From positions 1 to 64,000 of the forward strand of contig BTVV01000023.1 in assembly GCA_045863855.1 (NCBI GenBank): DNA of 64,000 nt. The letters are read 5' to 3'. How positions within the stretch are numbered: the stretch's first letter is position 1; every line of letters starts with the position of its first letter. The stretch is from Planctomycetota bacterium. GTDB lineage: Bacteria > Planctomycetota > SZUA-567 > H5-PLA8. The notes under the pieces are model-generated. The model did no database searches. It was not told the DNA's origin and saw only the letters and a program-made list of their open reading frames with translations. Shown piece after piece: positions 44,865 to 49,018 of this stretch. The position numbers and the translations under genes were made by a program.

Positions 44865-45986
44865 ATGACTATGAGACTGCGCAACGCGCTTCAGGTACTG
44901 GTCCTGTTCCTGGCGGCCGGCGGTTTGGGCGCTCAGGAGCCCCAGCGCCAGCAGGTCATGCGCATAAGCCGCGAGCTGCACCAGGCGTTTGCGCAGAAGG
45001 ATTACGCGACCGCCGAAGCCAAGTGCCGCGAGTTGCTGGCGCTGGCGCCGGACGAACCGAACGGGCATTACAACCTCGCATGCGCGCTGGCGCGGCAGGC
45101 CAAGCCCGACGCGGCGCTGGCCGCGCTGGGGGCGGCCGTCGAGAAGGGCTACAACGATCCGGCGCATCTGAAAGCCGACGAGGACCTGGCGTCGCTGCGC
45201 GAGTTGCAGGGCTTCAAGGATCTGGCGGCAAAGGCGCGCGAGAACGAACAGAAAGGCAACTACGAAAAAGGCCCTGAAATTCCTGGCCTCAAATCGATCG
45301 AGGACTTTCCCGAAGGCGGGCTGCGCTACCGGTTGCGGCTGAGCGCGGAGGCGACGAAAGAGAAGCCGCAGCGCCTGATGCTGTGGCTGCATCCCAGCGG
45401 CGGCTCGATGAACCAGGTCGCCGAGAACATGGCGCCGCTGCTGGCGAAGCACGGCTGCGCGCTGGCGGTCTTCACGCAAAAAGCCTGGGCGGGCTGGAGC
45501 AGCGAGGACGCGGCGAAGCTGGCCCCGACGCTGGAAGCGCTGGGCAAGGTCGAAGGCCTGGACGCCGCGAAGCCGATCCTGTTCGGGTACTCGGCCGGCG
45601 GGCAGATGGCGCTGACCTTGTGGGCGGAAAGCCCCGGTCGCTACGGCGGACTGGTGATCGACGCGGCCTACCCGCTCGACACGAACGCCTACGCACGAGG
45701 GCAAGTGCAGGCCATGGATCTGCCCAAGGACGAAGCCATTAAAACCGTACCGATCTTTTCGCTGGTCGGCGAAGCTGACGGCGGGCACCAACTCTGGACC
45801 CAAATCAAACCTAAATGGCTGGAAGCGGGCATCCCGCTCGTATACCGCACCGTACCTGGCAAAGGGCACGCGTGGCTCTTTGGCGTCGAACAACGCGCCG
45901 AACTGGCGGCGTGGCTGGATGCGGTAACTAACGGCAAACGCCCCAGCGATCAGCCGATTGCGCCCGAGCCGCAGGCTGCGAAATAA
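44865..45986 (+). CDS. Exported TPR + alpha/beta-hydrolase (esterase-like) protein
   Basis: Signal peptide; YNLACALAR...KGY....LKADEDLASLR TPR cap; GYSAGG nucleophile, GEAD and GKGH. Confidence 0.8.
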   Translation: MTMRLRNALQVLVLFLAAGGLGAQEPQRQQVMRISRELHQAFAQKDYATAEAKCRELLALAPDEPNGHYNLACALARQAKPDAALAALGAAVEKGYNDPAHLKADEDLASLRELQGFKDLAAKARENEQKGNYEKGPEIPGLKSIEDFPEGGLRYRLRLSAEATKEKPQRLMLWLHPSGGSMNQVAENMAPLLAKHGCALAVFTQKAWAGWSSEDAAKLAPTLEALGKVEGLDAAKPILFGYSAGGQMALTLWAESPGRYGGLVIDAAYPLDTNAYARGQVQAMDLPKDEAIKTVPIFSLVGEADGGHQLWTQIKPKWLEAGIPLVYRTVPGKGHAWLFGVEQRAELAAWLDAVTNGKRPSDQPIAPEPQAAK

Positions 45987-46217: not shown

Positions 46218-47417
46218 ATGCACTCCTTGAAGAGCGGTTGCGCGGTCCTGGCGGCGGCGTGCTGCATCGCGTGCGCGGGCGCAGAGCCTGTGCCGGGGTT
46301 CGATCCCGAGCGCGTGCGGAACGCGCAGCAGGAGATCGCGCGGCGGTTCCAGGCCGCGTTCGAATCGGGCGATTTCCGCGCCGCCGAATCGTACGCGCGG
46401 CAGGCCATCGCCTTGCAGCCGGATCTGGCGGTGCCGTATTGCGCGCTGGCTCGAGCGCGGGCGCGCATGGGCCAGCCCGCGGCGGCGCTGGAAGCGCTGG
46501 CGCAAGCCGCCGCGCGCGGCTTCGACGATCCATACGCCTTGCGTCATGACCCTCATTTCGCCGCGCTGCGCGAGGACGCCCGTTTCGCCGAGGTGCTGAA
46601 GACCGTCCGCGCGTCCGAAGAACGGCGCGGCGAACCCGCGCCGGCGGCGGTGCGCATCGATGGCGTGCGGACGCAGGAACACTTTCCCGAAGGCGGCCTG
46701 CGCGTGCGGCTGCATCTGCATCCGGATGCCGCGCCGGGCAAACCGCAGCGGCTGGTGATCTGGCTGCATCCCACGGGCGAGTCGATGGTCGAACGCATCG
46801 AGGCCTTCGCGCCGATGCTGGCCAAGTATAACCTCGCGCTGCTGGTCCCGGTGCAGCTCGACTGGACGCAGGGCTGGAACGGCGAAGACCTGGCGCGCCT
46901 GTTCGAGCGCACGCTCCCGGCTTTGGCCGAAGTGCGCGGGGTGGACATCACGCGCCCCATCTTGTGGGGCCATAGCGCGGGCGGGCAAGCGGCCTTGGCG
47001 CTATGGAGCGACGCGGCGGGACCGTACGGAGCGCTGATCGTGAGCGCCGCGCGCCCCGCCGACATGCGCATCTGGCACGCGAAAGGCGAGATCGCTCCGT
47101 TGGCGCCGCCGGCCGAACCGCACCGCGGGACGCCGATCTACGTGCTGGTGGGCGAAACCGACGATTGCGCGCCGCTGTGGGCCGACGTGCTGCCCGCCTG
47201 GAAGCGCGCGTACGTGCCGGTGGAGTTCACGCAAGTCTCTGGGCGCGGGCACGAGTGGCTCTTCGATGGCGCGCGGCTGGAGGCCTTCGAGCGCTGGCTG
47301 GGCGCGGCGGCGAAGCGTATCCGCATGCCCACCGCCGCCGATGCACCGCTGCCGGAAGGCGAAGAGCCGAAGTTGATGCCCTCCCCCGGCCTGCCGTCGC
47401 CCGAACGACCCTATTGA
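46218..47417 (+). CDS. Exported TPR + alpha/beta-hydrolase protein (tandem paralog)
   Basis: Signal peptide; TPR region; shared FPEGGLR.RL and KPQRL..WLHP motifs; GHSAGG, GETD and GRGH. Confidence 0.8.
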   Translation: MHSLKSGCAVLAAACCIACAGAEPVPGFDPERVRNAQQEIARRFQAAFESGDFRAAESYARQAIALQPDLAVPYCALARARARMGQPAAALEALAQAAARGFDDPYALRHDPHFAALREDARFAEVLKTVRASEERRGEPAPAAVRIDGVRTQEHFPEGGLRVRLHLHPDAAPGKPQRLVIWLHPTGESMVERIEAFAPMLAKYNLALLVPVQLDWTQGWNGEDLARLFERTLPALAEVRGVDITRPILWGHSAGGQAALALWSDAAGPYGALIVSAARPADMRIWHAKGEIAPLAPPAEPHRGTPIYVLVGETDDCAPLWADVLPAWKRAYVPVEFTQVSGRGHEWLFDGARLEAFERWLGAAAKRIRMPTAADAPLPEGEEPKLMPSPGLPSPERPY

Positions 47418-47469
47418 TTCGCTTGCTTTGAGCTTTTCGGCCTCCCGCATCGCGCTACAGTACCTGCTC

Positions 47470-47646
47470 GGCGTCCGGCGCCGGGGACAGGTCAAGCGAA
47501 CGAGCGCAAGCTCGGGCCGCGGGGTTACCCCGCGGGCGAAGACACGGCTTGGATCCGTCGTATGAGCTAGACGCGCGATGGGCGCGGACGCGCCATCGCG
47601 CGCTAGCTCCACACAGGTGCTGTTGATTTCCCCCGGCGCCGGCGCC
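47470..47646 (+). ncRNA. Putative retron msr-msd non-coding RNA
   Basis: Terminal inverted repeats ggcg-t-ccggcgccgggg (47470-47486) / ccccggcgccgg-cgcc (47631-47646). Hairpins cgagc-GCAA-gctcg (47501-47514) and ccgcgggg-tta-ccccgcgg (47517-47535), and a ~20-bp hairpin at 47564-47609. Lies 30 nt upstream of a retron-type RT. Confidence 0.8.
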
Positions 47647-47676
47647 CTGTTTTCGACCGCTCAGGGGTAAATCGGG

Positions 47677-48963
47677 ATGGGTTTGGGTTTCCTGAGACGC
47701 CTCTTCGGCGGGGGATCGGACGAGGCATCGCGGCCTCCGAAGCCCAAGCGCAAGCCATTCGCGCGCAAGCCGACCACGGTGCGCGGCGCGCACCGGGCGG
47801 CGCCGACGAATCTGCCCATTCCGGCCACCGGCAAGCCCTACGCCTTCCCGCTCTTTGCACCAGACTCGTTGAAGGAACCCCGAGCTTGTTTTCTGGACGG
47901 CCGCGTGGGAGAGAAGCACGAGCGCCAGAGCAGATGGAACCTCCCGCGGCTCGAGACGCCCGATAACCTCGCGAAGCTGTGCGGTGTGCCGCTCAAGACG
48001 CTGGCGTGGCTGTGCGATTACCATCGCCGCAACGCCGACGAGAAGATCAAGAAGAAGCAACACTACCATTATGTCTGGAAGCAGAAGAAGGCCGGCGGCT
48101 GGCGCCTGATCGAAGCGCCCAAGCCGCTCTTGAAGCACTGCCAGCAGCGCGTGCTGCGCGAGATTCTGGACCGCGTCCCGCCGCACGGAGCTGCGCATGC
48201 GTTTCGCGCGGGCCGGTCGATCAAGACCAACGCCGCCGCTCACGCGGGGAAGTACGCGATCGTGAAAGCCGATCTTTCGCACTTCTTTCCCAGCATCCGC
48301 TTCAAGCGCGTGGTCTCGGTCTTCCGCGGGCTGGGCTACAACGTCGAAATCTCGAAGTGGCTGGCGCGGCTGTGCACGAACCGGCTGCCGCCGGGCCTGA
48401 GCATCCCGGGCACTAACAACACTTGGGCGCTGTATTCCATCGTGGGTAACACCTCCACGCTTTTGGGCCGGCACGTGCCGCAAGGCGCGCCGACGTCCCC
48501 GGCGCTCGCGAACCTCTGCGCCTGGGCCATGGACGTGCGGCTGAGCGGTCTGGCGAAGAAGTTCGGCGCGGTCTACACGCGCTATTCCGACGACCTGACC
48601 TTCAGCGGCTCCGCCGAACTGATGGGCAAGCGGCGGATCAACTACTTCGTCCGCTACGTGCGCGGCATCGTGCGCAACGAACGCTTCAAGTGGCATCCGA
48701 AGAAAGTCCGCGTGGTCCGCCGCGGCTCGCGGCAGGTCGTGACCGGCCTTACGGTGAACGAGAAGCCCAACGTCGGCCGGGCGGAGTTCGAGACGCTGAA
48801 GGCGATCCTGCACAACTGCGTGAAGCAGGGACCGGCCTCTCAGAACCGTTCCGGACACGCGGATTTCCGGGCGTACCTGTCGGGCAAGCTCGCGTTCGTA
48901 AAAAGCGTGAATCCTCAGAAGGCCGCGCGGTTGGAGCGGGACTTCGCGAAGATCAAGTGGTAG
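47677..48963 (+). CDS. Retron-type reverse transcriptase
   Basis: KKAGGWRLIEAP, AHAF, NAAAH (retron region X NAxxH), DLSHFFPSI, PQGAPTSPALAN, YTRYSDDLTFSG and QVVTGLTVN (region Y VTG). Confidence 0.95.
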   Translation: MGLGFLRRLFGGGSDEASRPPKPKRKPFARKPTTVRGAHRAAPTNLPIPATGKPYAFPLFAPDSLKEPRACFLDGRVGEKHERQSRWNLPRLETPDNLAKLCGVPLKTLAWLCDYHRRNADEKIKKKQHYHYVWKQKKAGGWRLIEAPKPLLKHCQQRVLREILDRVPPHGAAHAFRAGRSIKTNAAAHAGKYAIVKADLSHFFPSIRFKRVVSVFRGLGYNVEISKWLARLCTNRLPPGLSIPGTNNTWALYSIVGNTSTLLGRHVPQGAPTSPALANLCAWAMDVRLSGLAKKFGAVYTRYSDDLTFSGSAELMGKRRINYFVRYVRGIVRNERFKWHPKKVRVVRRGSRQVVTGLTVNEKPNVGRAEFETLKAILHNCVKQGPASQNRSGHADFRAYLSGKLAFVKSVNPQKAARLERDFAKIKW

Positions 48964-48989: not shown

Positions 48990-49018
48990 TTGTCTGCCGC
49001 GATGGCGGCGCGCATAAT
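48990..49018 (+). promoter_or_regulatory. Sigma70-like promoter for the nucleotidase gene
   Basis: TTGTCT-N17-CATAAT between the RT stop and the GTG start at 49048. Confidence 0.5.

What the first reader, a model, noticed from the sequence alone, without database searches (positions are those of the whole stretch)
47456..47646. Predicted msr/msd architecture and msDNA product
Seen: a 12-bp perfect inverted repeat (47475-47486 / 47631-47642) extends to 16 bp across one bulge. Inside are a GCAA (GNRA) tetraloop hairpin, an 8-bp GC hairpin, and a long hairpin gagctag-a-cgcgcgat-g-ggcgc-ggac-gcgcc-atcgcgcg-ctagctc (20 bp, two single bulges). This order (short msr stems, then long msd stem) matches known retron RNAs. 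A -10-like TACAGT at 47456-47461 would start transcription just before the 5' arm. Inference: the branching G is near 47490-47496 and the msDNA is roughly 65-85 nt, copied from about 47630 back across the long hairpin. Caveat: the repeat core ccggcgccgg is self-palindromic in a GC-rich genome.
Basis: partly seen in the sequence, partly recalled or inferred. Interest (0 to 1): 0.75.

Follow-up and report, generated by a model that had tools for sequence, protein, structure and literature searches.

The report
Effector-less retron RNA in a planctomycete
The flagged stretch is a real, conserved template RNA gene of a bacterial retron (an RNA that its neighbouring reverse transcriptase copies into a small single-stranded DNA), from a known partner-less group whose planctomycete branch looks like a settled, possibly membrane-attached cell component rather than a mobile anti-phage cassette.

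Summary
Confirmed. 47470-47646 is the msr/msd RNA gene of an intact retron RT (47677-48963). It folds far better than shuffles (z -6.2). It is 177/177 identical in a sister species whose RT third positions are 80% identical, and its stems covary across homologues.

One correction: the closing stem runs on past the 12-bp repeat to an invariant AA-G / G-UU junction. The branching G is therefore predicted at 47496, opposite G47622, and msDNA should start near 47621, not 47630 (about 59-86 nt).

No effector gene lies beside it. HMMs, tree and RNA motifs place it with the stand-alone clade 11 retrons, already catalogued in Planctomycetales; a type XIII grouping is disfavoured but not rejected (AU p 0.057).

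Not found in the papers searched: most close RTs begin with an amphipathic or transmembrane-like segment; in a sister family about two thirds of genomes keep the element, three keep RNA and RT at separate loci, and three have tandem RNA genes with different msd hairpins. That points to a domesticated, possibly membrane-tethered retron of unknown output. msDNA production, branch point and function are inferred, not shown.

The parts
47434..47461 (+). Weak sigma-70-type promoter (-35 at 47434-47439, 16-nt spacer, -10 TACAGT at 47456-47461); start site inferred near 47467-47468
   Evidence: 7/12; not called at the 9/12 threshold; same position as strong promoters in 14 of 27 homologues
47470..47495 (+). 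5' arm (a1) of the closing stem: outer 4 bp, 12-bp core 47475-47486, internal loop, inner 7 bp 47489-47495
   Evidence: covariation in 11 of 15 consensus pairs of the closing stem
47496..47496 (+). Predicted branching (priming) guanosine, in a CAAGC context
   Evidence: A-A-G invariant in 23 of 23 aligned sequences; priming G lies in AGC at the inner end of the stem in known retrons (PMC6868368 passages); inference, not mapped
47501..47514 (+). msr hairpin 1 (5 bp, GCAA loop); variable across the family
   Evidence: 3 of 5 pairs with double-sided change in 4 close homologues; length and loop vary in alignment A1
47517..47535 (+). msr hairpin 2 (8 bp, 3-nt loop), the most conserved element; likely RT recognition stem
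   Evidence: 100% of cells paired in 23 sequences, C-G/U-A swap in 10; Ec86 RT region Y binds an 8-bp stem with a 3-base loop (PMC6868368); role inferred
47536..47563 (+). Linker in which reverse transcription is expected to stop (msr/msd overlap)
   Evidence: inference from retron anatomy; candidate stops at 47565-47536 give 57-86 nt; the stop point can only be found by experiment (PMC10849725)
47564..47609 (+). msd hairpin (20 bp, two single bulges): template of the msDNA stem, sequence-variable and structure-conserved
   Evidence: 12 of 20 pairs with double-sided change, 93.5% of cells paired
47613..47622 (+). Conserved ACAGG motif (47613-47617), predicted first template base 47621, opposing G47622
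   Evidence: ACAGG invariant or nearly invariant and G47622 invariant in 23 sequences; start position by analogy to Ec86 (recalled)
47623..47646 (+). 3' arm (a2) of the closing stem
47677..48963 (+). Retron reverse transcriptase, 428 aa: region X NAxxH (aa 185-189), YSDD (303-306), region Y VTG (355-357)
   Evidence: Pfam RVT_1; PADLOC RT_other 430.6, RT_outgroup 409.9, RT_XIII 353.8 bits; motifs; best Foldseek match Ec86 RT 7v9x, E 2.8e-20
47677..47715 (+). N-terminal amphipathic-helix-like segment of the RT resembling the E. coli MinD membrane-targeting sequence, followed by a low-confidence basic linker
   Evidence: sequence; MinD sequence as printed in PMC5471200; 96 amphipathic-pattern plus 9 transmembrane-like starts among 121 proteins; membrane binding not tested

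Best explanation
The region is the non-coding RNA gene of a two-part (RNA plus RT) retron. SHOWN by sequence and comparison: a conserved fold of closing stem, two msr hairpins and a long msd hairpin lies directly upstream of an intact retron RT, with no conserved neighbour gene. INFERRED from known retron biochemistry: a transcript starts near 47467 and runs into the RT gene. The RT binds hairpin 2 through region Y and uses the 2'-OH of G47496 as primer. It copies from about 47621 back across the msd hairpin and stops in the linker 47536-47563, and host RNase H removes the template. The product is a branched RNA-DNA with about 59-86 nt of DNA holding a 20-bp hairpin. For what the product does, my most likely reading (about 45%) is a domesticated, chromosome-resident RT-msDNA complex tethered to the membrane by the RT's N-terminus, acting on a partner encoded elsewhere and not as a local toxin-antitoxin cassette. 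The confidence figure is for identity and synthesis geometry, not for this last step.
For: Fold z -6.24. 177 of 177 identity against 80% at RT third positions. Covariation with shuffle and slide controls. Invariant AAG / G-UU junction. Retron motifs and fold. A model built from 23 homologues finds one hit in the genome, at 47470-47646. In family f10 the RNA and RT co-occur: RNA in 68 of 101 genomes, close RT (E below 1e-100) in 67, both in 63, linked within 1.2 kb in 57. RNA-library contigs of 3 of 4 studies laid cover about 47483-47656 or further and stop at 47482-47484; one bridges RNA and RT to 48211 (weak). For domestication: no neighbour family in more than 6 of 25 loci; no PADLOC hit in 15 non-RT window proteins; 8 of 132 neighbour ORFs of 16 loci hit PADLOC, none a retron effector; best viral relative only 36% identical; RNA and RT kept at separate loci in 3 genomes.
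Against: No msDNA, branch point or start site was observed. The RNA contigs carry sister-species variants, are unstranded and may include DNA. The window's promoter is weak (7/12). The catalytic motif is YSDD rather than the usual YADD. The element is not universal: 6 of 17 genomes of the own family have the RNA and 33 of 101 f10 genomes lack a hit, so it is dispensable. The N-terminal pattern was derived from the homologues it was counted on, kin are not independent, and planctomycete type XIII RTs L022-L024 start the same way. The AU test did not reject grouping with type XIII (p 0.057).
Confidence: 0.88

Rival explanations
1. Same RNA and msDNA, but the job is anti-phage defence: the msDNA senses a phage protein, and killing comes from an effector encoded elsewhere or from the RT's own membrane-active N-terminus.
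For: Most studied retrons are defence systems (10.1101/2020.06.21.156273 passages). Mestre et al. raise trans effectors for orphan retrons (PMC7736814). The msd sequence varies freely while its structure is kept, and tandem copies carry different msd hairpins, as expected of a sensor under phage pressure. Distribution is patchy.
Against: No defence-island context. Single copy among housekeeping genes, and no close viral relative. Millman et al. note two retron RT clades rarely near defence genes (which clades was not seen).
Confidence: 0.3
2. A type XIII (clade 10, Mx162-like) retron that has lost its SWIM and ARM effector genes.
For: RT_XIII is the third-best PADLOC profile (353.8 bits). The AU test does not reject a clade of this lineage plus type XIII (log-likelihood 19.6 lower, p 0.057). 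The N-terminal pattern is shared with L022-L024.
Against: True type XIII RTs score 510-538 bits on RT_XIII and lower on RT_other, the reverse of this lineage. The free tree joins it with Actinobacteria and Burkholderia stand-alone RTs (support 92; 94 for the split from XIII plus outgroup). The RNA model does not hit 5 type XIII loci above 13 bits but hits 53 of 80 metagenome loci of the clade-11-like RTs at E below 0.01. No SWIM domain was found in the genome (93.9% complete).
Confidence: 0.1
3. One reading: the stem ends at the 12-bp repeat, a G at 47490 or 47491 primes, and copying starts near 47630.
For: The perfect repeat does end there, and the inner 7 bp contain two G-U pairs.
Against: G47490 (alignment G25) is kept but paired with C or U in 23 of 23 sequences. 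The stem runs to A-U, A-U next to the invariant G47496 and G47622. In family f10 the stem is continuous up to that junction.
Confidence: 0.06
4. A chance GC-rich fold, a cis-regulatory leader, or a decaying relic that no longer makes msDNA.
For: GC 68% locally; a second 12-bp inverted repeat occurs in the window; YSDD variant.
Against: Covariation; complete conservation against diverged silent sites; the RNA persists with intact structure when moved away from the RT gene, which a cis leader would not.
Confidence: 0.03

Closest known systems
Stand-alone (msr-msd)-RT retrons of RT clade 11 (Mestre et al. 2020, PMC7736814; 'clade11-A/-B', OutgroupA/B RNA models in PMC13712802; PADLOC RT_other / RT_outgroup)
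   Same: Best HMM scores; sister position in the tree to Actinobacteria and Burkholderia stand-alone RTs; no accessory gene; the same hairpin 2 and AAG / G-UU junction seen by eye in Burkholderia L236 and metagenome loci L093 and L149, and a hairpin-2-like stem in Tsukamurella L235 and Dietzia L237. Planctomycetales members are already listed (11 clade11-B, 6 clade11-A in a supplement table of PMC13712802).
   Different: A separate Planctomycetota branch (support 97-98). The RT starts with a short amphipathic or transmembrane-like segment and a basic linker, not the roughly 100-aa N-terminal region seen in the Burkholderia and metagenome RTs. High prevalence in one family, with split and tandem RNA genes. 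No Planctomycetota retron is in the Khan et al. test table.
Retron type XIII / clade 10 (Mx162, Mx65, Sa163, Ne144)
   Same: Next-closest RT clade; long N-terminal extension; similar small msr hairpins; reported vertical inheritance (PMC7736814).
   Different: No SWIM or HEAT/ARM/WGR genes nearby, no SWIM found in the genome; reversed HMM ranking; different RNA family.
Retron-Eco1 (Ec86)
   Same: Top structural match of the RT model; opposing-G geometry at the stem end (recalled; priming G context in PMC6868368); 8-bp stem with a 3-nt loop as RT-binding site; similar product size (about 85 nt, PMC8989520).
   Different: Ec86 has an effector gene and defends against phage; 28% identity; no membrane-type N-terminus noted.
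Retron-Eco5 (Ec107) and the effector-less clade 2 branch
   Same: Two-part cassette without effector, function open (PMC7736814).
   Different: Different RT clade (RT_Ec107-like only 191.8 bits).

Membership tests
Retron (general) | RT with region X NAxxH, catalytic YxDD and region Y starting at VTG | tested here: met
   N185, A186, H189 invariant in 30 close RTs; YSDD 303-306 and VTG 355-357; definitions from PMC6868368
Retron (general) | Adjacent ncRNA with terminal inverted repeats, 1-3 msr hairpins and a long msd stem | tested here: met
   definition in PMC7736814 section 16
Retron (general) | Priming G in an AGC-type context at the inner end of the closing stem | tested here: met
   G47496 in CAAGC, invariant in 23 of 23 aligned sequences, opposite invariant G47622
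Retron (general) | The ncRNA is transcribed | tested here: inconclusive
   RNA-library contigs of 3 of 4 studies cover it, but they are unstranded assemblies of sister-species variants
Retron (general) | Produces 2'-5' branched msDNA | not testable with these tools
   needs expression and RT-DNA sequencing
Clade 11 stand-alone retrons | RT falls in clade 11 | tested here: met
   RT_other and RT_outgroup outrank RT_XIII in the window RT and 12 relatives of 17 proteins scanned; groups with Actinobacteria stand-alone RTs, support 92.
Clade 11 stand-alone retrons | No associated effector gene | tested here: met
   no neighbour family in more than 6 of 25 loci; no retron effector among 132 neighbour ORFs or 15 window proteins
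Clade 11 stand-alone retrons | ncRNA matches the published OutgroupA or OutgroupB covariance model | not testable with these tools
   the models are in a supplement that could not be read and are not in Rfam
Type XIII retrons | Associated SWIM zinc-finger and HEAT/ARM/WGR genes | tested here: not met
   flanks are an esterase-like TPR gene and a bisphosphate nucleotidase; no SWIM hit in the genome
Type XIII retrons | RT in clade 10 | tested here: inconclusive
   the free trees and HMM ranking say no; AU p 0.057 does not formally reject it
Anti-phage retron systems | Protection against phage through a toxic effector | not testable with these tools
   no effector adjacent; needs phage challenge

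The most novel reading that the evidence does not exclude
A Planctomycetota branch of clade 11 retrons has been domesticated into a membrane-tethered msDNA-making complex. The RT carries a MinD-like amphipathic anchor, swapped for a transmembrane helix in some members. The RNA has become an independent gene that can sit elsewhere on the chromosome or be duplicated with different msd hairpins, so one RT serves one or several DNA products in trans, for a cellular role other than abortive infection.
Probability: 0.3. Interest if true: 0.75.

Novelty: new variant of a known kind. Interest (0 to 1): 0.42.

Why it matters
The RNA itself is one more member of a catalogued class. Its value lies in the open question of what effector-less retrons do: Mestre et al. 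(PMC7736814) leave open whether they use effectors in trans or have another function. This lineage makes that testable. It gives a precise RNA model with a predicted branch point, occurs in cultured Planctomycetaceae (Planctomicrobium sp. SH664 by locus; Stratiformator vulcanicus and Calycomorphotria hydatis by RT hit), has natural split and tandem RNA arrangements, and has an RT with a candidate membrane anchor. A freely variable msd stem on a compact RNA may also suit retron editing tools.

Tried and rejected
Rfam: no meaningful hit.

Promoter scan of the window at the standard threshold: nothing upstream of the RNA.

A lower msd stem between the linker and the ACAGG junction was suggested by RNAalifold. 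It was not supported across the family: only 2 of 27 loci beat shuffled linkers at p 0.1 or less, and the window scored 0.725.

Universality: one search showed 20 of 20 f10 genomes with the RT, but the larger draw gave 79 of 101 at E 1e-70 or less, 67 of them close, and 68 of 101 for the RNA.

Apparent RNA-RT splits in G497, G499, G504, G492 and G466 lie at or near contig ends and are treated as assembly breaks.

A genomic target for the msDNA: no match above 17 nt perfect elsewhere in the genome, best E 0.057.

Phage-borne relatives: best 36% identity among 80 loci kept.

ESM Atlas search of residues 1-125: one hit at 0.75, uninformative.

The careful tree did not finish; quick trees were used. 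L031 was a very long branch and was left out.

Run X5 covered only part of the RT, not the RNA. The lack of cover over the upstream gene proves nothing.

Khan et al. supplement table 1 (parts 1, 3, 4 of 4, plus a search of the whole file) has no ncRNA sequences and no Planctomycetota, so the branch point could not be transferred from a tested clade 11 retron.

Own-scan look-ups by place and by sequence returned nothing.

Full report
OBSERVATION. But 47470-47646 folds at -115.1 kcal/mol, z -6.24, with 0 of 200 shuffles as stable. It is 177 of 177 bases identical in the sister genome G002, where 228 of 286 RT third codon positions and 148 of 168 third positions of the upstream gene match. Rfam has no family for it.

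SETTING. The closest named relatives are Planctomycetota MAGs. The RNA lies between a TPR/esterase-like gene ending at 47417 and a 428-aa RT (47677-48963), which is followed by a bisphosphate nucleotidase and a gluconolactonase-like gene. The RT has NAxxH (185-189), YSDD (303-306) and VTG (355-357). It scores best on PADLOC RT_other (430.6 bits), RT_outgroup (409.9) and RT_XIII (353.8), and its model (pLDDT 83.5) matches Ec86 RT first. It is the only match in its genome.

COMPARATIVE STRUCTURE. I examined 37 RT loci. 31 had the hairpin-2 and 3' junction motifs; the 6 without were 5 type XIII loci and L032. I aligned 23 of the 31, leaving out the duplicate L006, the long-msd L010, and L011, L012, L034, L052, L053 and L054. 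These windows were cut around the motifs, so the presence of the motifs is partly by choice; the pairing is not. In that alignment the AAG ending at 47496, the G-rich/C-rich hairpin 2 and G47622 with the following U are invariant. 19 of 29 consensus pairs have double-sided changes, and 87.3% of cells pair against 42-47% when slid. On 4 close homologues with the window's own structure, 18 of 56 pairs do so, 12 of 20 in the msd hairpin. The closing stem therefore ends at A47495-U47623, leaving G47496 opposite G47622. Known retrons prime from a G in an AGC-type context at this end of the stem (PMC6868368, passages). I predict branching at G47496 and first templating at about 47621 (the Ec86 analogy for the first base is recalled). 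The stop must lie past the hairpin and before hairpin 2, giving about 59-86 nt; it can only be fixed by experiment (PMC10849725, passages). Hairpin 2 has the shape (8 bp, 3-nt loop) that Ec86 region Y binds. Promoters scoring 9/12 or more end 26-34 nt before the branch G in 14 of 27 homologues and in 0 of 27 control windows; the window's own scores 7/12 at -34.

EXPRESSION. Seven runs on record as RNA held 6-13% of the words. Of 4 runs from 4 studies laid, 3 have contigs over the RNA that stop at 47482-47484, and one 729-nt contig spans from there to 48211 in the RT; the fourth covers only part of the RT. The variants match the sister species, and the data are unstranded contigs that may include DNA. 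This is a weak hint of a transcript beginning at the RNA and reading into the RT.

CLASSIFICATION. Quick trees place the window's RTs (support 100) as sister to a Planctomycetaceae group (98-99), together 97-98. These join Actinobacteria, Burkholderia and metagenome stand-alone RTs (92), apart from type XIII and other retrons (94). An AU test forcing them with type XIII gave p 0.057, not a rejection. HMM ranking separates the groups cleanly. My RNA model hits 53 of 80 metagenome loci of related RTs at E below 0.01 (8 above 85 bits) and none of 5 type XIII loci above 13 bits. No SWIM domain was found in the genome. Mestre et al. describe stand-alone cassettes in clade 11, essentially Actinobacteria (PMC7736814; passages and section 16; supplement unreadable). 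The SPIRE survey lists Planctomycetales in clade11-A and -B and rates them low novelty (PMC13712802; passages and supplement rows). So the kind is known. The unread supplements may already contain this RNA family as OutgroupA or B.

NO EFFECTOR. Among 25 loci of about 9-14 kb, no neighbour family occurs in more than 6. 0 of 15 non-RT window proteins and 8 of 132 neighbour ORFs from 16 loci hit PADLOC, none a retron effector (132 of 170 called ORFs were sent, leaving out RT frames, their antisense shadows and L071/L072). An effector in trans is not excluded.

WHAT IS UNUSUAL IN THE LINEAGE. (1) The RT begins with a segment nearly matching the E. coli MinD membrane-targeting sequence (as printed in PMC5471200, passage). 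Among 121 proteins, 96 start with an amphipathic-type pattern, 9 with a transmembrane-like stretch and 16 with neither; by eye, six of those 16 have a looser form and several are truncated calls. A stricter pattern fits 88 of 121 against 38 of 3696 ORFs of the genome. The patterns were drawn from these homologues, kin are not independent, and three planctomycete type XIII RTs start similarly, so it may be a phylum habit. (2) In family f10 (taken to be Planctomycetaceae from the tree; the name is inferred) the RNA is found in 68 of 101 genomes and a close RT in 67. Both occur in 63, and they are linked in 57. The own family has the RNA in 6 of 17. (3) In G063, G440 and G522 the RNA lies mid-contig before the same membrane-protein gene (also in G471, where the RT was not found; 79% complete). 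Their RT genes are on other contigs with no RNA hit even with filters off, and the four RNAs keep the fold, with 13 of 58 pairs showing double-sided change. (4) G453, G487 and G497 have two tandem RNA genes, each with its own promoter and a different msd hairpin. I found none of these features in print with searches (listings only, apart from the papers named) or with term searches inside PMC13712802. The library lacks most subscription papers.

MECHANISM AND ODDS. Retron RNA with the geometry above: about 0.88. Downstream role: a domesticated non-defence complex, probably membrane-tethered, about 0.45; defence through a trans or N-terminal effector about 0.3; the remainder is unresolved. Millman et al. 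(10.1101/2020.06.21.156273, passages) and Mestre et al. both suggest non-defence roles for some clades. PMC8989520 (passages) supports the RNase H step, and PMC8867640 (passages) adds only general context.

VERDICT. The element belongs to a catalogued effector-less class, but its branch shows features that make the class's open question testable. Novelty: new variant of a known kind. Interest 0.42.

Noticed in passing
window 47677-47715: The RT N-terminus nearly matches the E. coli MinD membrane-targeting sequence; most close homologues have an amphipathic start and 9 of 121 a transmembrane-like stretch instead.
   Followed up: partly
L245:2119-2293, L247:2466-2641, L249:2129-2313, L257:2148-2333 versus RT loci L246, L248, L057: msr/msd gene unlinked from its RT in G440, G522 and G063, always before the same roughly 510-aa membrane-type gene with no Pfam hit.
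   Followed up: partly
L250:545-705 and 888-1045; L251:1630-1788 and 1949-2107; L252:645-805 and 886-1045: Two tandem msr/msd genes, each with its own promoter and a different msd hairpin, before one RT.
   Followed up: partly
window 47487-47492 and 47613-47618: A 6-nt direct repeat (ACAGGT) sits just 5' of the branch G and near the start of the msd template in the window's subfamily, so the 5' end of the msDNA could pair back to the RNA arm once the template is removed. Not seen in family f10.
   Followed up: no
L010:961-1222: A close homologue has an msd hairpin about 60 nt longer (branch-to-opposing-G distance 186 against 126), so msd length is flexible.
   Followed up: no
window 48583-48594: Catalytic motif is YSDD in the window and the sister genome; the other relatives inspected have YADD.
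   Followed up: no
L057, L062, L064, L068, L069, L072, just downstream of the RT: A co-oriented 240-300 aa membrane-type gene without Pfam hit follows the RT in 6 of 25 loci; the most frequent neighbour, probably ancestral synteny, but the best candidate partner.
   Followed up: partly
L052/L073 and L053/L074 (family f60): A separate planctomycete branch has the same hairpin 2 but a different junction (no AAG / G-UU) and scores nearly equally on clade 11 and type XIII profiles.
   Followed up: no
L022, L023, L024: Planctomycete type XIII RTs also begin with the amphipathic pattern, unlike L013, L014 and L238.
   Followed up: no
window 44865-45986 and 46218-47417: Two paralogous secreted-looking TPR plus alpha/beta-hydrolase-like genes in tandem upstream of the retron.
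   Followed up: no
window 48990-49018: A 9/12 promoter-like site right after the RT stop, so the downstream nucleotidase gene is probably transcribed separately.
   Followed up: no
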